Origin: Eledone cirrhosa
Taxonomy: Eukaryota
Direction of reading: 5' to 3'
Assembly (NCBI GenBank): GCA_964016885.1
Contig: OZ024741.1
Location: 363,816,001-363,880,000, forward strand
DNA: 64,000 nt
The position numbers and the translations under genes are program-made. The notes beneath the pieces are model-generated. The model was not told the DNA's origin. It did no database searches and saw only the letters and a list, made by a program, of their open reading frames with translations. Shown here piece by piece: positions 1-51,350 of this stretch (position 1 is the stretch's first letter; each line of letters opens with the position of its first letter).

Positions 1-8538
<8,538 letters not shown>

Positions 8539-8847
8539 TATATATATACATATACATATGTTGGTGCCACAACATCCAGGCCGAAACAAATGAGATCGTG
8601 TAGGTGTCACGTAAAAAAAAACACACAGTTCATGCTGTAATGTGGCCGTGTAGGCAACACGGTAAAAACCTCCCAGCCCCACACTGTAAATGTGGTTGGT
8701 GTTAGGAAGGGCATCCAGCTGTAGAAAACCTGCCAGATTGTCCTATGCGAGCAAGATAATCACTCTTGCCTCAAGTGGGAAAACCCCCGTCCAAAGCCAT
8801 GCAAGCGTGGAACACGGACGTTAAACGTTGATGATGATGATGATGAC
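8539..8847 (+). mobile_element. RTE-tail SINE or RTE 3' UTR with (ATG)n tail
   Basis: gttaggaagggcatccagctgtagaaa...aaacgttgatgatgatg; closely similar inverted copy at 35878-36168. Confidence 0.8.
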
Positions 8848-9029
8848 ATACATACATACACATATATATATGCCGTACTAAGAGTGAGAAACGAAATTTC
8901 GTTTCCTTCTATTCCATTTCTCGTTTTCGGTGTGCCCGGCCGACTGAACTCAGTCGATATGCAAGTTAGGCTGCTCAGCCGTTAATATGCATAAGGAAAG
9001 TATATACTTTCAGACATTCAACCATCTGG

Positions 9030-9088
9030 CAGGAAGGTATACGATGCTGACGATAGCTACCAAGCTTGAAACTAGTACATCGTTCCTG
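9030..9088 (+). ncRNA. Minimal type I hammerhead ribozyme
   Basis: Stem I ACGATG/CATCGT (extended by CAGGA/TCCTG across a bulge), core CTGACGA, stem II AGCT-acca-AGCT, GAAA, palindromic stem III ACTAGT, cleavage triplet GTA at 9075-9077. Confidence 0.8.
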
Positions 9089-9348
9089 TGTCAGTGTTGA
9101 ACAAAAAGGTGACGTGGTTGCCTAAACACTGTACGGCGTAATTCGGGCTCTTTGTTCGTTTACAAACAAACAAACCGAGCATTATAATAAATGTTCGGTA
9201 AACCGATACGTGCATATATATATGTGTGCATGTATGTATATATACATACTACTATACATCTGTATACATATATGTATGTACGTATACATACATTTAAGTA
9301 AGTGCCATACTAAGAGTGAGAAATGAAATTTCGTTTCATTCTATTCCA

Positions 9349-11408
<2,060 letters not shown>

Positions 11409-13054
11409 TCATTTATTAAGGCAAAATATTGAGTCTTGTTACTCTGGTGAAACTCCAGAGTAACAAGTCTCTCCAGTTAACCATATTAAATAAATGCGAG
11501 CAGGACCTGTGGAAATTCCACAGCTGAAAAAAATTAAGAGGATCTATTTAAGAGATGATCTTTTAGTAGCATACTATTTCTTCTCTCCTGTTATCTTAGT
11601 CTACCTTGCTCATGTCTCTGTTGTTGTCATCTTCTTTCTTTTCATATTAATTTTTGCTGTTCCTGTCTGATCCATGCTCTATATCTGCGCATCCTCTCTC
11701 AAGCAGTTTGCTACCATCTTTCTTGGTGTAGAAAGAATAAATCCATTTTATTAAGTTGCTTCTTTGTGTAAGTATTAAATGTACATAATAAATTTCTTAA
11801 TATACATTATTAAACACATGTATGAACTGGTAAGTTAAGGTTAAATGTGTATTTGCAACTGTATATATCTTCTTTCACATAGAGACCAGCATCTGAACAT
11901 TCATTACAATTGCATGAGTATATAAATATAAATGTGCAAATAAACATATAGAAACATAAACACACACCCACCCACACAAACATATACATAAGCAGACACA
12001 GAGAAAATAGTTATTACATAGTGTTCTAGGATTCATTACAATTATGTGTTTGTATATATATGTATGAGTATATAAATATAAATGCGCAAACACATCCTTA
12101 TACATAAATAGACACAAGAGAAAATAATTATTACATACACAGCGTCGTAGGATTCATTATAATTGTGTGTATGTGTATACATTTATATGCATGAGCATAT
12201 AAATATAAACACACACACACACTCACATAAGTGTAGCTAATCTTGGAAAGCTTGTCACTAAAGTGTTTCACCCACCTCCCTTCCTCAATCATTACATAGC
12301 TGTGTGTATATGTAATAATCATTTTGTATAATGTCTGTATTTGTGAATCTGTATGTGTAAATATGTGTGTTTGTACTTCTGTTGTCTCTGTATCAGTTTA
12401 TGTATTTAGGTGTAGATGTGTGTGTATGTAACTAAAGCGTAACATACACATGAACAAATGGATGAAACACAAAGAACTATATGATTTAAACTCTACTTTG
12501 GTATTGAGTACTCTTTTCTATTGTCTGTCAACTACATATGGATATATATATATATATATCTGGACTCGTGGAAACACCTGTACTCCAAGATTTGCTAGAC
12601 AAGAATGACCAAATCTGAATAAAAATTTTAGATCCGAAAGGGCTATCAACTAACACATACTAACTGTTGGAATCTTTATGCCTCTTGATAGTTATCCACC
12701 TCTCTGTTCTATATGGTTGAAGCTTTCCTATTAACAAATCAATATGATGTGTTCTGTAGCATGTTTCTCACCCACGTGACTCAGCCTACATTGAGCAGTT
12801 TATAAAAAGCTTGACTGGTGAATTTTCCCTCTGCCATTAAATTGATCGAATTCCTCAAAATTTCTACATTATATATACACACACACATACATACATATAA
12901 GAATGGTTTTCCAAAAGGGATCAGAAAGTAACCAGTTAAATAAAGTGAAACTAATCAGTCACCTCCAAGGTCCTTACACCAGAAGGATGAGTGCCTTCAA
13001 ATAATTGGGATTATTTTATCTATTTTCCTTTTACTTATGGTTCCAATGTTTGAT

Positions 13055-13266
13055 TTAACCCTTTAGCATTTAAACCGGCTGTATCTGGCCAGAATTCTCT
13101 CACCACTTTCTGTTAAAACCTGTCGTAACTGGCCACTCGTACTGATGTTAAGGTATTGTTCTCAAAATCTCATAGATTCGATATTATGAGATAATTATGT
13201 GAGATAAAGTGTTTACCATGAAAATATAATAGTAAATATAGAGTAATGTAAATGTTAAAGGGTTAA
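13055..13266. mobile_element. piggyBac-type MITE, family A
   Basis: TTAA|CCCTTTAGCATTTA...TAAATGTTAAAGGG|TTAA terminal inverted repeats with TTAA target site. Confidence 0.85.
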
Positions 13267-13597
13267 GTTTATCAGCCCAACTGAGGGTTTACTCTCAAAG
13301 TTTGGCTTGTAGTTCTTCAGTTATCTTCATTGATAATCACTATATATATCATTCTTAGGTTACTTTACATTTTTTTAAAATGCAAAATGGTTAAGGTGTT
13401 GGACTTATGATCATATTGTGGGTTCAATTGTTGGACCAAGCATTTCATTTTACATTGCTCCAGTCAACCCAGCTGAAAAAGGAATACTTATAGCAGTTGG
13501 GTATTGACTCTGCAATGAAACCTGGCATGGGACGGATGAGTTCATCAATAGGATCTGATGAAGAGCCTTCTTCTTTGACTATCTAGAAGTAGCATCT

Positions 13598-13915
13598 GCC
13601 AAGAATGAAAAGTTTGGATTCAAAATAAATAGAGCACCACCTACCAATAAATTGTTCGAGGATGACCTATTTAAGTTAATAAAGAACTTGAAATTCTGGA
13701 AAACTAAACTAAGGTTGCAATCATTCCTGAAGAAAGAGTTCCACAAAAATTAAGAATTTGAAAAACGAGCTCAGCATGCACCCTCCCCTCTCACATAATA
13801 CCTTGCATCAAGTGCTGTTAACAACACATACAAAAAGTTGACAATATCCTCAATGAAATTAATATCCAGGGCAAATAGATTACCAACTGAGTAAAGATTG
13901 ACGATAGAAAAGAAC
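13598..13915 (+). mobile_element. Degenerate Penelope-like ORF N-terminal fragment
   Basis: Remnant peptides NEKFGFKINRAPP, FEDDLFKLIKNLKF, NTYKK, NEINIQGK...KIDDR resemble pre-RT PLE segments; frameshifted. Confidence 0.55.
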
Positions 13916-14968
13916 CCTCTAAGGCGAAACCCCACATCTAACGTTAGGGCTAGGGCTAAATAACTGAAGATTACCTGATTACAAAGGAAAGATGGGGTTG
14001 TTGACTGCTAATACAATCCAAATAATTGTACAACTGACAGTGAATTCCTGACCTGAATTTTGAAAAATTGTTTAAAAATATTAGCATGAAAAGACAGAAA
14101 TAAAATTAAAATAATTTGCATATATATTTCACTTTTGTATTTTAGGAGGGTCATGCTGCTAGTCAAAACATGTACCTATTGACTTTCATTTCAGTTTTAT
14201 TATTAATCAGACAGAAAAGATAGAGTGTAGATGAAGAGGAAAGCCAGAGGGCAATAGTTATTAATAAAGTCACTGGTTGTGATAAAAGCAATTTGACAAT
14301 TAATTGACAAACTAACTAATGAATTAATTACCTGATTAATAATAAAACTGATGAGAAATTCAACCAGCACCTGCATGACCCTTCCTAAATATTGTATATT
14401 TTATAGATTTAAATAGCGGGTGGGATTTTCAAATTTATTGCAGTACTCTGAGTTCAATATCAGTAATTTAAAAAAAAATATATTTATATATATAAAATAC
14501 AGTTTAACCCTTTTGCTACCATATATGGTAAGACAATGGCTATGATTTTCAAATAATTTTGAAAATATTCAAGTAACTTTCTCATTAATAAGCTAGTGTT
14601 TTTCTACAATAACAAAGGGTCTTCCATAATTTACGATGGACGGTATTAAGATTAGTAGAAACACTGAAAAAGAAACAGTATATTATCATAGTACAATGGC
14701 CTGTTTAAAGCAGTTTGGTTTAAAAAAGCTTAAAGGTGTATTAACTCTTAGAAGAAACCACTTCACAATTTCAGAAACCAGAGAATGTATGTCGAAAGAA
14801 CTTAGAAATATTTCTTCAAATACTTTTGAAGAAAAGGCAAAGAATCAACTGTCACATTAGACCAAGAAAACAGTTTCCATTGGTCTTTCAATTGTTGATA
14901 CTATTTGCTAATTGAAGTTCTTGATAAAAGAAGACAAGATTTGAACACAGAATGCAGAGAGCTGATCA

Positions 14969-15176
14969 TTAACCCTTTAGCATTTAAACTGGCCGTATCC
15001 GGCCAGAATTCTCTCACCTCTTTTTGTTTAAACTGGCCACTCATACTGATGTTAAGGTATTGTTCTCAAAATAAATAATATCAAAATCTCATAGAATCGG
15101 TATTATGTGAGATAAAGCCTTTACTGTGAAAATACAATAGCATATATAGAGAGTAATATAAATGCTAAAGGGTTAA
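14969..15176. mobile_element. piggyBac-type MITE, family A, second copy
   Basis: Same TIR and TTAA flanks; closely similar to 13055-13266. Confidence 0.85.
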
Positions 15177-16086
15177 ATCAAACCAAGGAAACAATGTTTC
15201 CATTGCTGAATCCAACATTTTAACAATTCTCCCAGGTCACTGCCTGGAAGAAATTGAACTAAAAAAAAAAAAAAAAAATTAAATACTTGGATAATTTTTC
15301 TTCTAAATAATATATTTATTTAGGCCTTTTTTTTTCATTTTTCTTAAAATTAGTGTTATTATTTTTATTTTGAAAAGATCAAAGATAATTTGCAATAATC
15401 ATTTTATTACACAGAACATAAAAGTAATATTAGAGAGTTAGTAAGGATGATAGATTTTAAATAACAAACATAGTAAAGCAAATACATTTACAGAAATCTA
15501 TATTTTTATTTATTTTTTTGTGGGGGTAAACTGTACTGATTACATAATCAACGAAAGGAATATTAGAGTATATATTACATAATTTATATTTTTAAAATAG
15601 GTTAAAGTCTGTCTTTAGCCTGGCTCATGAGGCTGGAAATAAACTTGGTTTCATTGACGTTAAGTGACTGAGAATACCAGCCTCTTCCCTGGATAGGACT
15701 CCAGTCCACCAAAGATTTAACCCCCAATTGTTGTTGCTGGTGGTACTTATTTTCACTGGCTCACCATGAAATCAAATGTTTTGCCCAAGAAGACAATGTG
15801 TCACCCAGCCCAGAAATTGCACATATATATATATAATAAGCATTTATATTGTGTTATTGTTGTTAGATTTGAACTAGTTTCTGATAGAAACAACAAAACC
15901 AATGATTATGATGACTGTTATAATGGCAATGTAAACAAAGCTTACATTCTGATGAGTTTCAATCAAAGATTTTATACATCATTAGATACATTTCTGTATA
16001 TATAATAAGCTTTAAATTCTGCTGAAAAAAAAAAAATAGAAATTTAGGATTTCCTTGATCAAAAGCCCAACATTCTGTGCTGCTAT

Positions 16087-16121
<35 letters not shown>

Positions 16122-17611
16122 GATTATCCTGGAGGTTTTGTTCATCTGTCACACAAATACCAGACAAAAATTAGGAGGGAGGGTTGCAGGTGGAGGCAAA
16201 TACCCTAAAATACATTCTCTGTCAATGGTGTTGCCTATCTATCTACCATCTCTCTAGTTATATGTGTCTGTATGTATGTATATATATATATACATACAAA
16301 CATTGCTTGGTTAAACCAAATATTACTTATTCTATCTCTAAAACAATGAGTTATGTTCTAGTATATTTTATTATAACAGAATAAACAATCCTTTGGGTTG
16401 GTATTGTTTTTCTTCCTTTGATTGATTTCAATGCATAATAATAACAGTATGTATAACATTTAACATCATTTAATCTTGAGAATCAGATTATCCACTTCGT
16501 TATACATAACTTAGTAATAACAACTCCAAAATACATATAGTTTAGATTTAATTTGTATTTGTTAAAAAATAGTTACTAAAAAAACAAAAAACCCAGCATA
16601 GTTTCCTTGATCAGGTGAGACCAAGGAAACTATGCTGGTCATTAAATTGCAAATACTATCTGCTGGTCACAATTCTTGGCAGAAGAATCACTGCTCTCCC
16701 AATGAGCCAGAACAAATGCTGCAAAGCATTTTGTCTGATTCTTTAACAATTCTGTCAATCCACTGTCTATGTAATGAAACTTTATTTATTGACCCCAAAA
16801 GAATGAAGGCAAAGTTGACCATGGCAAGTTTTATACTCAAAGTGCTACAAATACCAAAACATTTAATCTGATGCACTGTTTCTGCCAATTTGTCGCTAAT
16901 TACTAAACTTAAAAATTCACCAATAAATCAATATTTAATATACATCTTAAACGATTCGATATTTCGAAAGCATTAAATTGTTTATTTCTACTGTTTAATC
17001 AACAGTGTAAATAACTGAATTACTAATTATAAAGGAAAGGAGCTGATTGTCAAATTGGACCAAGGAAACAATATTTCCATAGGATTTCCATTGCTGACAC
17101 TTTCTGCCAGTTGCAAGTCTTGAGGATGGATTTGAACTCAGACTCAGAATGCACAGAGCTGGATCAGATACAGCAAAGCATCCTGGCCAATCCTTTAGTA
17201 ATTCTGCTGATCCACGATCTATTGTTGCTGAACTAAGGCAAATTTGACTTTGGTAGGATTTGAACTCAGAGTACAGTGAGCCAAAACAAATGAAGCATTT
17301 TAATCCACCCTACTAACGACCCTGACAATTTTCTAATTTATCCAAATATAGATAAATGAAGTGAAAACAATAATCAAGAATTCTTTTCATTTGGCAGGAT
17401 TTAAACTCAGTGCAATAAATCAAAGCAAATACTGAAGAATGTAATCTGACGCTCTAATGACTTAATTTCACCATCTAATTATGAAATAGATTAAAAATCA
17501 CAGGATTAATCTGATAGGATTTGAAGAAATTGTATCATAATAGATGTATTTTATTTGTTAAATTCCTACCAATTGAGATGAAAGAGAGAGTAAACTTACA
17601 TTTCAAAATAT

Positions 17612-17859
17612 ATATTTATTTTTTCATAAGATCAGTGAGAGTTTGATACTGTCAGTTTCATTTGTCATTTCATCAACGGGCTACACTTTCAAAGAAACAT
17701 TTATCGTGAAGCCCTTGAAGAAGACATTCTTCAAAGAATTTTCTCTCTATGGACTGCACTTTGTCAATAAATGTTCTATTGAAAATGTAGCCAGTTGTTA
17801 AAATTCTAAATGAAATTGACAGTATCAAACTTTGACTGATTTCATGAAGAAATAAATAT
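17612..17859. repeat. Long imperfect inverted repeat, arms ~100 bp
   Basis: 17612-17711 versus 17759-17859, e.g. agtttgatactgtcagtttcattt / aaatgaaattgacagtatcaaact. Confidence 0.9.
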
Positions 17860-18158
17860 TACCTCTACTTTTACATATTGTAGGTGCCTTCTTTCATTAT
17901 ATAAAATCCATTCAAGTAACTATATACACATATTGTGTACTACTTTGATTTGCTATCTTTTTGGTTTTCAAACATGCATATACATACCTTTGCTTTAAAC
18001 CTTTTCAATCAAGTTCTAGCTTTCATTAATAGTTGAAAGTTAATAATTTTAGCAGATTTCCCCAATTAAAAAATCAGAATTAGATTAAATATTGATTGAT
18101 CATTAAAGCACCTCTATGTGAGAAGAACAATGAGGAAAATTTGAAGGTAAAACAAAAC

Positions 18159-18202
<44 letters not shown>

Positions 18203-19169
18203 TACATACATATATATATTCATATACAGATATGACACCATTTATTCAGATTCTAAAAATTTGAAAAATCCTGAAAACAGACTAATTTTGTAACTGTCAT
18301 ATTATCTACCTTTCTTTGTTTAATTTTCATCCTATATATTATACTTGATACAGGTATTCTACATAGGTATTATAAGAATTTTAAAATGTATTAGTATAAT
18401 CAAACAGACCCTGTGATCTTGCCTTAGCAGTGTATTAGTTTGAATCTGTTAAATACAGTTTTGTTCATTACTTTTCATTGTATATTTTATATATCAAATA
18501 TATATATACTTAGCCTGCATCCAGAAATCTGGACCACCTCTAGCTGCAAGCATACTGGATAAATGGTTCAGTACTTGTATATGGAAAATAATCAAAATAT
18601 GAATTTTGCTTTTTGTGACATAATTACTACTGATATATATATAATGAAACTTTCTTTGAGTGTATCGCTTTAGGTGTAAATTTTACATATGCAAATAAAA
18701 TAGGATTACATAATCATCTAGAATTAATTAAATGAAGTAAAAATAATAATTAGACATAGATTGATAGAATAATACCATTTATTGCTCAGCTAACTTTTTT
18801 TTGTTGTATTTTAAAAAATCAAAACCCATCCATTAAATATGTGAGTAGAGTTTTGAGGATAACAGTGTAGAAGTTCGACAGAATAATTATTGCAGTTCAA
18901 ATCTCTTTTTCCTTCACCAACTATACTCTTATATATATATATTACTAATCTTCAACTGTTGTATTATAATCTGCTTTGCTTGGGCGATTTAGATTTTCCC
19001 TCCAATATTGCCATCTAACTTGCGTATTAATCAGCATGGCAATTAATCCACAAATTTCATCATCATCATCTTCTGTATTACCAAAAACAGTTAAGCTGCT
19101 ACTAAATTATATAATCTGTATAATTCTGACAACAAAAATCAAACCAGGAATTATTTAAAGCCTAATTGC

Positions 19170-45880: not shown

Positions 45881-46902
45881 TCTCACTGAAGACATGTAAT
45901 TGCCTTATTTAACCCTTTTGAGAGTTGAAATATCTGATGGGCACAAATATAACTGCCATATACCACAGTTTGCAAATGGCAATAGTCTTATCCTGGAGCT
46001 TGGATAAAGAATATTCAAAGAAAACATTTTTGCATAACTATTTCAATTTCTGAAAGATTTATTAAAATGAATAATTATTTCATTACTAAGATACTAACTT
46101 AACGCATGGTTCTTGAAATAAAATTATGTTGGAAGATTTTTTTCAAATTTAAATATGTACCCTTTAAATAGGTGGTTTTGTTTCAAAGAACCAGAGCCGG
46201 GATTTGTCTGGGTTAGTATCAAAGAGATTAATTTTATTAAAGAATCACAAAGCCATCAAAACAAGATGTCATAGAATTGGTTCATATAACTGAAGCATCT
46301 CAAAGTCAATGCATCCTTGCCACTGCCACTCAAAATAAACCTAATTGAAAGAAATAAAAAGTGAGAAAATGCGTGTGCATGTGCTTCATCTTTAAAGGGA
46401 AATAAAAATATCAAATAGTTCAAAGAAAGACTGCCCCTCCTTCCAAATGCACACACACATTTTAATTAGAACAGAACAATATTTAGAAATGTATAAATAT
46501 ATAAAAACAGCAAAGTATCAGTTATGATAAAAGTGTAATTGTTGTGTTTCAAGGTCTAAGAATTTTCATCAACATCATTGTCATCATCATTTTATGGCTA
46601 TTTTCTTCTGTTGGCATAGGTTGGGGGAGTTGCCATCATCTGAGTCAGCTTCTATTTAGAGTTACAACCCTACTAGATGGGGTGGGGGACCATATATTGT
46701 ATCATATGTACAGTTTCATTTCACACAAATAAAAATAGGTTTTCTTATAAGAAAAGCTTTAGTTTGCAATTTGTATCATAATATTCCCTAAATTACAATA
46801 AAATACAATTTAAATATCTGAGGAACACATAACTATCATGTACTATAATTCATAAATTATCCTGGAACCTGGATAAAGAATATTCCAAGAAAACATTATT
46901 GC

Positions 46903-48256
46903 ATAACATTTAAACATTTGAGTGGAAGAGTAGCCATAAATGACTCAGTGTAAATAATGAGAAATACACACACACACACATATATATATATAGTTCAAGA
47001 ATAAACAAGACAAACACATACATGAAGAAATCCAAAGTCTTATTAGTTTCATACTTGGGAAGTATATATAATATACATACACACACACACATATATCTAT
47101 ACACACACACACATTCACATATAAATGTGTGTGCATATATACATATATATATATATATGTACACATATATATTGCATGTAAGTGTTGTTTTGGTCCTGCA
47201 ACATGAAGTAATAAAATATTTGTGAGGCAACAAATAAATATATTTTAAACAAGAAAAATAACAATAACAGAAAAAATGCGACAGTATTATCAAATGGAAT
47301 AAAAAAATAAATTAAAAAGGGTAAAAAAAAAGGGGGGGGGGGGGGATTCAAATAAATTCAGACATGAAAATAAACTTACTTTTGGTAATTTGATCCTGTT
47401 GGAGGTTGGTCTGAATTGGGAGTATAACTAGGTTCACGGGAATGCTTGATACCTGTTATTATGATACCTTCATTTGAGCCGAATGCTTGCTTTTTTGTTT
47501 TGGTGATATTGTGTAATTCTGGTGAATATTCCTAAGAAAAATAAAATAAAATAAATATTACATGTACCACAGCATGGCCACAGTCTAATAACTGAAACCA
47601 ATAAAAGTGTAAAAAAAAAAATAATAGAAAGGGATCCAAAGCAGCGCCTGGTGATATTTTCCTTATTACCACAGACTTCTGGGATAGAGCTGATCATCAG
47701 ATCAAACAAAAAGAAACAGTGTTTCAACTGATGGTCGCAATTTCTGGCAGAAGAATTTGAACTTAGAACACATAGAAGTTATCAAGTGTTTGATAAGACT
47801 AAAGAGTTCTCCCTACCCTATATTGTCTTCATTTGATCACTAGACACATTACAGAGTGTAATGAGTGTATTTTATCATGGCACCAGCACTACAACGGTTG
47901 TCAATATATATTTAATTTTGTTTTCATTTGTCACAATTGATGAGCAATAGTTTCATTGATTTTTAACTGACGAATCACTGGTTCATTGAGAGTGACAAGA
48001 AATTGCTTAACTCAGCAGAACAAAAACACAAGATATTTTTTATTGAAAAGCATCAGATTTTTTAGTTTCCTTACCAATGTTTACAGCATTCACCAGTATA
48101 CATTAGCAAAAAATATATACATATATGCATCTGACTGTAAAATATTGCCTCAATTAAGACTGCACATATATATATATATGTGTGTGTGTGTGTATTTCTC
48201 ATTATTTACACTGAGTCATTTATGGCTACTCTTCCACTCAAATGTTTAAATGTTAT
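46903..48256. repeat. Perfect 90-bp inverted repeat pair (46903-46992 / 48167-48256) flanking a syndapin exon
   Basis: Arms are exact reverse complements, including a (CA)7 tract; the ORF track shows the same peptide on opposite strands. Confidence 0.95.
47380..47531 (-). CDS. PACSIN: Syndapin post-F-BAR exon (152 nt, phase 0-2)
   Basis: ttttcttag|GAA TAT...CAA AA|gtaagt. Translates EYSPELHNITKTKKQAFGSNEGIIITGIKHSREPSYTPNSDQPPTGSNYQ, resembling the PACSIN segment after WPQFE (EW/Y...KKK...GVTLTGI). Confidence 0.9.
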
Positions 48257-48786
48257 AAAGTCTATTAAGGTACTTATAAAGCTAACCCCTGCTTTAACAG
48301 GAAAGATAGCCTTAAAATGTGAGTGTGTGTATTGTATTAAGAGAGAACAAAATTTTCTTTGTTGTTCTTAATACAAATACTCTGCAAATTACATCAATAA
48401 CAAACTGATGCTACTGCAAATATACACATTCAACACGGAACTATTCACGTAATAGCATTGAGTGCTTAAACTGGTGGCACCCATAGCAATAAAATATTAG
48501 CAAAACTCCATCACTATGCTGTTGGTAAATGCTAATACAAATGCTAGTTTAGGGGCTCATTCTTAGCTAAGAACTTCCCTTGCAGTTGTCTCATTAGGAA
48601 AATATATCCTGGGTTGGTTTTGTATTGTGTAGCTAGTTTAGGCTTGTTGTAGTTAGTTGTTGGGTAGGACTGTATAAAGAAAAGTTACACACATACACAC
48701 ACACACAATGGACTCCTGCAAAAATATTGTGTGAGTGGTTACAAAGCAAATTTTTTAATCACACTATCATAGTATATATATATATA

Positions 48787-51350
48787 TCATCCTCATTACC
48801 ATTTATTGTTGATTTTCCATGCTAGCTTGAATTACATGGGCTGTCACATACTGAGGTTAGACTAGTCAGGTGACTATGTCTTACTTGTATGCTCTGTTTT
48901 TATGGCTAGATGTCCTTCCTATCACCAACCATTTTATCATGAGTCTGCCAATATCTTATAAGACGGACTAGGTGCTTTTTGTCATGGCACCAGCACTATG
49001 ACTTTACAGAGTGGGCTGGGTGCATTTTATCATGGCAACAGTAATACATCATTACAACTTGTTAGGTTGGGAAGGCAATCATGGGAAAGGAAGCACTGGA
49101 ACATGGGAATAAACTCGAAGCAAGTAGGAGATATCTGTGTTGCTTCTTTGGGTTTAAGGTGGGCAAAAGTGGACGGGTCACAAGCATACTGAGTGGTGGG
49201 GGCCATTTTCTCCATGTTAGTTTTATCCTACTTGCGTGGAAAGTTGAGTCTTCTCCAGTATGGCATGTCACCAGTTAATTTGATCTCAGGTCATCTGCTT
49301 CATGAAGTTTATCTGTGTGAGGTCAGCCTTCACCACATCATCTTAATTTTTCCTAGATCATCTCATTTCATAGGTTCCATTGCCTCCGATACTCTACATT
49401 TGTTTTTATAGCTGTCATCCTCCATTCACATCACATATACATACCAACACAGTCCCCTCTCCTGTGCACTGTATCCGATCCCTCTATGTCCAGTTCTCTC
49501 AGCTCATTGATGCCTTGTCATTCAGGTATACTGCTACTACACATCCATCAGAGCATGCTCACCTAATTTCTTTCCAATTTTCATAATGTCTCTGCACACA
49601 AGCATCATACAATCTGCCTTTCACTCTGGCCATTGTAGCCAGCCAAGGTAGTAGTTCCATTTGGCTACTTTGCTTTTAGAACTCTCACTTCCTTTGCTAA
49701 TTTGGTCTCCCATATAGGAGAAACTAGCAACTGTCTCTAGGGAGCCATCTGAGCATTTGATAGGGCTTGTTTCATGCAAGTCCTTGTTCATTGTCTCACA
49801 CAAAGCCTACCTTCTTTACCTGAGATCCAACTACATCTCTTGTCTACCCATAGTTTACATTTTGTACATAAGATGAAATTTCTATCTACTCCATTCCTGC
49901 ATTTTTCTTTCTTCATGTCTGAAATTCTTCACTAATTTTGCCATGCACTCAACTATGAGAACAAGATCATCAACATATAGGAGTTCCCATGGACAGTCTT
50001 AAAATCCTCTATTATGGCTTGGAGGACAACAATAAACAGAAAGGGGCTGAGAACAGAGCCCCGGTGGACCACCACCTGCATAGTAAATTCGTCACTATAT
50101 TCATTGTTAATTCTAATCTTGCTAACAGCACCTCTTTATATGTACCACCATTTCAAGCCATTTCTCTACCCTTAGTTTCATAAGAGCCCATCAGATTATT
50201 GAGCAAGGAACCCTGTCAAAAGTCTTTTCCAGATCAACACATTCCAGGTAGAAGGGCTTACCTGTGAGTAGCTGTCTCACAAGGAAAAGACACCTGTGAA
50301 ACTTCTATCAGGCACAAAATCAAACTGCATCTCATCTATGTTAATTCTATCTCTAATTATTTGTGCAATAACTCTTTCAATAACTTTCATGACCTAATCC
50401 ATCAACTTGATGCTTCTATAGTTCCTCTGTTCAGTTCATCTCCCTTGAACTTTTAGCCATTGATGGTGATGCTGCCAGTCATTCTCTATTACTCAACTAT
50501 ACACTCAGTTGGTGAAAACATCTAATATGAAAGGATACATACTGTGTATATAGTTGAGTAATAGAGAACTCAGCAACTATTCCTGATGGGCCTGCTGCTT
50601 AGCTTGCATTCATATATTTAATTGCTTTACCTACAATACTGTTGCTAACTTGGATTGGTTCCTTTGTTGTGCCAGCTTGTGGCAGACCCTCTTTTAACAG
50701 TGTCCCATAATGACACTTCCATGCTTCTCAGCAGCAGAGGGGACAAATGCAACACTGCCATTTCAGATGCACTTCTCTCTAGCACACTACCGTGCAATCC
50801 TGAACACTCCACACCTTTAGCCCTCATAACACCAAACATGTGCAAACTTCTTATTTTCTACTTCTATCCTTGTTAATTATACCTGGTGCTTAGCTTCTTA
50901 ATATTGTTCCCTGCTTACTCCTTTTAGCCAGTCTTTCCATACCCATTTCTTTGTTTTGATCACTTCATCCAGCCTTCTATTCCACCACCATCTCATCCTT
51001 CATCACCTTGGTGCCTTGCACTAGTCAGATGTCTTATCTGTAGCCTTCAGTAGATTATCTTGCAGGAGCCTCCATTGTTCTTCTATACTGCCAGTCTCTC
51101 ATTCATCTTCCTTAAACTTCCCAGTCCCTGATTGTTACATATCCAGAAAAATTAGTATCACTGTCTTGTCTGTGAGGACTCTGGTTGAACCTCCTCTCCA
51201 TCTAATCTCTTGTATGCAACATTCATTTACTTTCTCACATTCTACAATCTCACCTGTTCTCCCTTTCATCATTCCAACTTTGTTTCATAAAGTTTTGGAG
51301 ATCACAGAAAGTAGGAGGATTAGTATTGGCCAGAGAAATGACATTTAAGA
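48787..51350 (-). mobile_element. Degenerate RTE LINE, ~2.5 kb
   Basis: Minus-strand remnants HRGSVLSPFLFI and CPWELLYVDDLVLI near 49960-50070, LETVASFSYMGDQI near 49700; multiple stops and frameshifts; same 3' UTR family as 5678-6637. Confidence 0.85.

What the first reader, a model, noticed from the sequence alone, without database searches (positions are those of the whole stretch)
46903..48256. Perfect 90-bp inverted repeat brackets the 152-nt exon
Seen: exact reverse-complement arms lie 387 nt and 635 nt from the exon and do not match the SINE/MITE families recognised in this window. The left arm abuts a truncated repeat piece (46857-46905, like 45988-46038). Inference: the pre-mRNA duplex could loop the exon out, promoting skipping or back-splicing to a circRNA, and would be an ADAR substrate. 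A recent template-switch duplication is the neutral alternative.
Basis: partly seen in the sequence, partly recalled or inferred. Interest (0 to 1): 0.72.

Follow-up and report, generated by a model that had tools for sequence, protein, structure and literature searches.

The report
Young backwards intron copy in PACSIN
In an octopus-like animal, 90 bases of an intron of the membrane-shaping gene PACSIN sit copied backwards inside an old repeat on the far side of a short exon, likely from a recent DNA-repair slip; the two copies are predicted to pair in unspliced RNA, but such copies are common in this genome and nothing yet shows that this one changes splicing.

Summary
The repeat is real: two identical 90-nt inverted arms, 387 and 635 nt from a 152-nt PACSIN/syndapin exon. 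Short-read contigs show the arm at double depth, with breaks where two copies predict, so an assembly artefact is unlikely. The direction of copying can be read. The left arm is old: it runs on unbroken in a relative and overlaps an older local duplication. The right arm splits an old dispersed repeat, replaces about 5 nt of it, and ends in a 3-nt TAT microhomology. It is best read as a young, locally templated inverted insertion from a template switch or end-joining. Comparable inverted copies occur in 4 of 159 evenly spaced 10-kb stretches (about 2.5 per Mb), and 4 of 10 PACSIN exons tested have a flanking inverted match within 3 kb. The RNA duplex is predicted to form. But skipping this conserved exon gives a stop within 1-5 codons, and 152 nt is short for a circle. 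Verdict: an ordinary repair scar, probably near-neutral, likely edited by ADAR, perhaps with minor skipping. The scan noted similar cases in other genomes.

The parts
46903..46992 (+). Left arm: the old intron sequence that served as template (lies downstream of the exon in the minus-strand transcript)
   Evidence: continuous with its flank in one single-depth contig of organism B (X4, record 29, record 9); first 12 nt belong to an older direct duplication
48167..48256 (-). Right arm: inverted copy of the left arm; about 87 new nt plus TAT (48254-48256) shared with the interrupted repeat
   Evidence: 86-nt contig at depth 21.3 in X1 against 9.5-12.7 for neighbouring contigs
48127..48166 (+). 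Left remnant of an old dispersed repeat copy (profile positions 149-175 match 48127-48153; the next 13 nt fit positions 176-188 loosely by eye)
   Evidence: nhmmer E 5.8e-7 on a 600-nt region, profile from 30 genomic copies
48254..48330 (+). Right remnant of the same repeat copy (profile positions 194-270)
   Evidence: nhmmer E 1e-17; 38 other genomic matches to window 48240-48420
47380..47531 (-). 152-nt PACSIN/syndapin coding exon directly after the F-BAR domain; phase 0 in, phase 2 out; consensus-like splice sites
46857..46914 (+). One copy of an older 59-nt local direct duplication that overlaps the left arm
45988..46046 (+). Other copy of the older direct duplication (90% identical)
   Evidence: region also present in organism B (record 26)

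Best explanation
The right arm is a 90-base backwards copy of nearby intron DNA that sits inside an old repeat, likely made by one recent repair or replication slip, and it is likely a near-neutral passenger in the PACSIN gene. Inferred steps: DNA synthesis stopped at 48166 inside the old repeat, switched to the template 1.2 kb away starting in its (TA)n run, copied about 87-90 nt in reverse, and rejoined the repeat through TAT, losing about 5 nt. In the pre-mRNA the arms are predicted to form a 90-bp stem round the exon, which would be an ADAR substrate. The exon probably stays mostly included, because its splice sites are strong and skipped products would carry an early stop.
For: Shown: the right arm splits one dispersed-repeat copy; 18 profile positions (176-193) correspond to 100 nt in the window, and the match resumes at TAT, the last 3 nt of the arm. 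The left arm runs unbroken and at single depth (15.8) through a 929-nt contig of organism B, with 2 differences in 51 nt, and overlaps an older duplication. Two copies exist in read-derived contigs: breaks at 46932 and 48227, exactly 30 nt inside each arm, in X1, X2 and X3, and a double-depth arm contig in X1 (one sample only). Zero differences in 90 nt against 7-8% intron divergence from organism B has P about 0.001, so the copy is younger than that split or was homogenised. Similar abrupt, low-copy inverted duplications: 4 of 159 stretches; direct ones: 5 of 159. Exact inverted repeats of 60 nt or more of any kind: 18 of 80 stretches. 4 of 10 PACSIN exons tested have an inverted match within 3 kb, one scoring higher (243 against 163 bits). 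Skipping gives a stop after 1, 2, 5 or 5 codons at the 4 downstream acceptors tested. Germline inverted templated insertions with microhomology are described in humans (PMC8421209).
Against: The pre-insertion state is inferred from a repeat profile whose copies are only 76-88% alike, not seen directly. The inner junction lies in a (TA)n run and its microhomology cannot be resolved. This is the only 100% match among the exon-flanking pairs found in the gene, and the full stem appears in both the minimum-energy and centroid folds. A 220-bp insertion of the same type caused exon skipping and 10% shorter tails in mice (Tbxt insRCS2, PMC10901737), so neutrality is not safe. The flanking contigs show no branch to an empty allele, which hints at homozygosity in this animal; that fits drift or selection alike. 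Long perfect cases are rarer: 1 of 159 stretches had 80 nt or more at 99% or more.
Confidence: 0.75

Rival explanations
1. Same accidental origin, but the stem measurably loops the exon out and causes partial skipping. Most skipped mRNA would be degraded, lowering PACSIN dose; skipping onto the proline-rich last exon could give an F-BAR-only protein.
For: Stem predicted, arm duplex -146.6 kcal/mol. Arms are close to the exon, and enrichment of inverted Alus rises nearer to alternative exons (PMC13019944). Direct precedent in mouse Tbxt insRCS2 (PMC10901737).
Against: Consensus-like splice sites. Frameshift at all 4 acceptors. The precedent arms are 220-297 nt against 90 nt of 28% GC here. In humans 23,540 constitutive exons carried 232,493 flanking Alu pairs, and predicted folding energy barely separated skippable from constitutive exons (PMC13019027).
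Confidence: 0.13
2. The stem drives back-splicing of the single 152-nt exon into a circRNA at a level that matters.
For: 30-40-nt inverted repeats can suffice for circularisation (PMC4201285). Geometry fits.
Against: In that paper ZKSCAN1 exons of 400 nt or less circularised poorly or not at all, although 336- and 360-nt exons of other genes did, and not all repeats worked. CircRNAs are at low levels in octopus (PMC9699675). The circle's single ATG runs into a stop after 4 codons.
Confidence: 0.05
3. An older, selected RNA structure whose arms are kept identical by gene conversion or by inversion of the 1.17-kb loop.
For: Perfect identity, microsatellite included, would also follow from conversion.
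Against: Organism B's left arm lies in one unbroken single-depth contig, so it has no identical twin there. The left arm is no more conserved than its flanks (2 of 51, P 0.2-0.27). The right arm disrupts a decayed repeat.
Confidence: 0.04
4. Assembly artefact, or the terminal inverted repeats of a transposon that captured the exon.
For: Perfect identity and a microsatellite end are features that artefacts can have; X1-X3 may come from the assembled animal.
Against: Read-derived contigs break 30 nt inside both arms and the arm has double depth. No target-site duplication at the true ends. Arm has 2 genomic matches. The exon is the single native PACSIN copy, in gene orientation.
Confidence: 0.03

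Closest known systems
Germline microhomology-flanked templated inverted insertions (MMB-TI, PMC8421209; passages and section 10 part 1 read) and four-point template switches (PMC5453318; abstract read)
   Same: Insertion is an inverted copy of nearby DNA, replaces a few bases, and has junction microhomology.
   Different: Template is 1174 nt away; the MMBSearch definition uses templates within 100 bp. The enzyme route (template switch, MMBIR or polymerase theta end joining) cannot be told from one scar.
Mouse Tbxt insRCS2 and human TBXT AluSx1-AluY loop-out skipping (PMC10901737; passages read)
   Same: A unique intron stretch copied in reverse into the intron on the other side of an exon; insRCS2 arose unplanned at a CRISPR cut.
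   Different: Arms here are 90 nt and AT-rich against 220-297 nt; skipping here shifts the frame; no skipping has been shown here.
Reverse-complementary intronic repeats that promote circRNA (PMC4201285; passages and section 12 read)
   Same: Complementary arms over 40 nt in both flanking introns, within a few hundred nt.
   Different: Single 152-nt exon, below the sizes that circularised in that study; no back-splice evidence.

Membership tests
Locally templated inverted insertion | Insert is a reverse-complement copy of nearby DNA with abrupt ends | tested here: met
Locally templated inverted insertion | One copy interrupts sequence that was continuous before | tested here: met
   Right arm splits a dispersed-repeat copy; indirect, from a profile of 30 other copies
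Locally templated inverted insertion | Microhomology at the junctions | tested here: inconclusive
   TAT at the outer junction; inner junction lies in (TA)n and is unresolved
Locally templated inverted insertion | Empty allele seen in another individual or species | tested here: inconclusive
   see Tried and rejected
MMB-TI in the narrow MMBSearch sense | Template within 100 bp of the insertion | tested here: not met
   1174 nt between arms; definition from PMC8421209. Not filed under the narrow class.
circRNA-promoting flanking repeats | Complementary arms of 30-40 nt or more in both introns, predicted to pair | tested here: met
circRNA-promoting flanking repeats | Back-splice junction reads | not testable with these tools
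   See Tried and rejected
circRNA-promoting flanking repeats | Exon length in the range that circularised in minigenes (a tendency, not a strict rule) | tested here: not met
   152 nt against 336 nt and up in PMC4201285 section 12
Loop-out exon skipping (TBXT type) | Exon-skipped isoform that depends on both arms | not testable with these tools
   Needs RNA-seq and a minigene
Loop-out exon skipping (TBXT type) | Inverted pair flanking a single exon | tested here: met
TIR DNA transposon / Pack-MULE | Target-site duplication | tested here: not met
   Best matches 4 nt and only with shifted ends
TIR DNA transposon / Pack-MULE | Termini in many copies; captured exon is a duplicate | tested here: not met
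   2 matches of the arm; one genomic match for this exon
Known RNA family (Rfam) | Match at gathering score over an arm | tested here: not met
   0 of 21 matches reach gathering score; they fall on microsatellite-rich stretches

The most novel reading that the evidence does not exclude
A natural counterpart of the engineered mouse Tbxt insRCS2 allele: one repair scar, now apparently homozygous in this octopod, loops out a constitutive PACSIN exon often enough to lower PACSIN dose or to make an F-BAR-only protein without SH3, with ADAR editing of the stem tuning the level in neurons. With thousands of such scars in the genome, local inverted copying would be a transposon-independent source of new splicing switches in cephalopods.
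Probability: 0.1. Interest if true: 0.55.

Novelty: new member of a known kind. Interest (0 to 1): 0.18.

Why it matters
As it stands it is a clean, polarised example of a common mutation type: both the template and the interrupted site can be read. It would matter if the stem changed splicing, because it would show that a single 90-nt repair scar, without any transposon pair, can rewire a constitutive exon in an animal with very high ADAR activity. It is a ready-made test of how short an exon-flanking duplex can be and still cause skipping.

Tried and rejected
RNA: no RNA holder listed for this stretch, so skipping, back-splicing and editing were not examined. Empty allele: organism B (X4) gave no contig over the unique flanks of the right arm at 85% likeness and none over part of the exon itself, so the hole says nothing. 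The 648-nt X1 contig 48227-48874 was not listed and depth there fell to 0 in one bin; the tool says a filter drops some records, and I rely for that junction. (TA)n idea: 4 of the 5 other events had a (TA)n-rich flank by eye, so I fixed a test beforehand. In 79 held-out stretches there was 1 event, without (TA)n; 2 of the 3 remaining first-set events scored positive, and the random expectation is 21.5%. Not supported, sample too small. Two events (L061, L071) were dropped because their arms matched elsewhere in the larger set. One search used a complexity filter that removed the window's own repeat; it was replaced. The exon's presence in the 6 proteins was circular (found with the exon), so I searched again with the F-BAR end. 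Transposon ends, Rfam families and assembly artefact were tested and rejected. The repeat family has no tested name; 'SINE-like' is recalled. A look-up of earlier notes near this place returned none. No supplementary files were read; the circRNA tables of PMC9699675 could say whether the orthologous PACSIN exon circularises in other octopods.

Full report
Observation. The arms 46903-46992 and 48167-48256 are exact reverse complements over 90 nt with unrelated flanks. The 68 non-microsatellite bases match only these two places in G000. Between them lies a 152-nt exon on the minus strand, 47531-47380, with AG and GT ends, 635 nt after the first arm and 387 nt before the second in transcript order.

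The gene. The exon encodes the stretch just after the F-BAR domain of PACSIN/syndapin; the best named hits are octopod proteins at 82-86% identity. The F-BAR exons lie beyond the window, the nearest 23 kb upstream, and the exon has one match in the genome. Searching with the end of F-BAR rather than the exon gave 10 proteins, and all 10 continue into this stretch (for seven of them, for the other three). The exon starts in phase 0 and ends in phase 2. Skipping it gives a stop after 5, 5, 2 or 1 codons at the four downstream acceptors tested. So it behaves as a constitutive exon in protein records; isoforms removed by NMD would not appear there.

Not an artefact. In contigs of three runs of one sample (X1-X3, possibly the assembled animal, so not an independent individual), single-copy contigs end at 46932 and begin at 48227, each exactly 30 nt inside an arm, as expected when two flanks meet one repeated sequence. 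In X1 the arm is a separate 86-nt contig at depth 21.3, against 9.5-12.7 for its neighbours. The right-flank contig is unbroken across 48256, which hints that this animal has no empty allele; contigs can drop variants.

Which arm is new. The left arm is old. In organism B (X4, introns about 7-8% diverged) one 929-nt contig at single depth runs from 46075 through the arm, with 2 differences in the 51 nt compared. The right arm is the newcomer. Its outer flank is a dispersed repeat. A profile from 30 copies of that repeat matches 48127-48153 at positions 149-175 and 48254-48330 at positions 194-270. Eighteen profile positions therefore face 100 nt of window: 13 nt that loosely fit the repeat by eye, then 87 nt of inverted copy. 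The match resumes at TAT, which is also the end of the copied template. About 5 nt were lost. This is the form of a templated insertion with microhomology (inference; compare PMC8421209, passages and section 10 part 1 read; PMC5453318, abstract read). The template is further away than the 100 bp used in the MMBSearch definition, and the enzyme cannot be named.

Age. No difference in 90 nt has P about 0.001 at the divergence from organism B, and the 95% upper bound on arm divergence is 3.3%. The copy is thus younger than that split unless it was homogenised. The left arm is not more conserved than its flanks (P 0.2-0.27).

How common. Exact inverted repeats of 60 nt or more, 0.1-5 kb apart, occur in 18 of 80 evenly spaced 10-kb stretches. 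Abrupt, low-copy inverted duplications at 95% identity or more occur in 4 of 159 stretches (49-137 nt, 0.4-2.7 kb apart), and direct ones in 5 of 159. That is 2.5 per Mb (95% range 0.7-6.4), or some 2,000-19,000 in the genome; copies of repeated DNA are filtered out, so it is a lower bound. Only 1 of the 4 was both 80 nt or longer and 99% or more identical. In PACSIN itself I tested 10 of 12 mapped coding exons: 4 have an inverted match within 3 kb on both sides and 8 within 10 kb; one nearby pair (193 nt, 89%) scores higher than this one, but this is the only perfect one. With 12 exons in 89 kb, a 1.2-kb loop placed at random in the gene encloses an exon roughly 13% of the time (hand estimate).

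What the RNA would do. The full 90-bp stem appears in both the minimum-energy and the centroid fold of the 1441-nt region; the duplex alone is -146.6 kcal/mol and holds 65 adenosines. ADAR editing is likely: most octopus editing is in introns and 3' UTRs (PMC9699675, passages read). For circles, 30-40-nt repeats can suffice, but ZKSCAN1 exons of 400 nt or less circularised poorly and the shortest that worked were 336-360 nt (PMC4201285, passages and section 12 read); endogenous circles do range down to about 100 nt (PMC7868716, passages read); octopus circRNAs are at low levels. For skipping, the precedent is strong: an unplanned 220-bp reverse insertion across mouse Tbxt exon 6 caused skipping and 10% shorter tails (PMC10901737, passages read), and inverted Alus are enriched near alternative exons (PMC13019944, abstract and section 4 part 1 read). 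But many constitutive exons also carry flanking Alu pairs, and folding energy barely separates the classes (PMC13019027, passages read). Here the splice sites are consensus-like and skipping shifts the frame. I put measurable skipping at about 0.13 and a meaningful circle at 0.05.

Verdict. A real, young, locally templated inverted insertion that happens to bracket a PACSIN exon. Shown: the arms, two copies in reads, the interrupted repeat, the frameshift on skipping, the background rate. Inferred: the repair route, the age, duplex formation, editing and near-neutrality. Five literature searches were aimed at mechanisms; none was aimed at this locus, so I make no claim that it is absent from print. 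Earlier AI notes on other genomes describe the same kind of scar; they were seen after my reading was formed and are not evidence.

Noticed in passing
window 30067-29134 (-): PACSIN alternative exon encoding a long GPPGM-repeat, proline-rich tail that ends in its own stop; an Octopus vulgaris protein (P0002) has the same F-BAR plus tail form without SH3, so an SH3-less PACSIN isoform is shared among octopods.
   Followed up: partly
window 38310-38143 and 32332-32225 (-): Two in-frame cassette exons (168 and 108 nt, ends read by hand), each adding an NPF motif; both end in nearly the same donor context (GTAATGATAG). Each matches a separate O. vulgaris isoform (P0005, P0004).
   Followed up: partly
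window 45988-46046 and 46857-46914: Older 59-nt local direct duplication, 869 nt apart, 90% identical, overlapping the left arm; a second copying event at the same spot.
   Followed up: yes
L050/L051 and L049 region, G000:C2 about 363920001-363933748: A 314-nt, 97% identical inverted pair brackets the first coding exon of PACSIN at 5-8 kb on each side.
   Followed up: no
L047 5365-5557 and 7917-8106: A 193-nt, 89% inverted repeat pair brackets an F-BAR exon, 330 nt and 1.9 kb away; it scores higher than the finding's pair.
   Followed up: no
L080 4922-6079, L119 4930-6238, L130 4405-7232, L176 6311-6820: Four more abrupt, low-copy inverted duplications of 49-137 nt; L080 and L119 have loops of about 1.05 kb like this one.
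   Followed up: partly
window 47071-47168: Local (CA)n/(TG)n hairpin between the exon and the left arm; attracts sub-threshold Rfam microRNA hits that reflect the microsatellite.
   Followed up: partly
window 1-12000: Very low GC (6-27%), strongly C-skewed simple-repeat tract with an assembly gap at 728-927, downstream of PACSIN.
   Followed up: no
window 17612-17859 and 50482-50568: Two self-complementary elements (about 75% palindromic), MITE-like by shape.
   Followed up: no
window 31802-31086 (-): Two adjacent open frames that look like a decayed reverse-transcriptase (LINE-type) remnant inside a PACSIN intron; label recalled, not tested.
   Followed up: no
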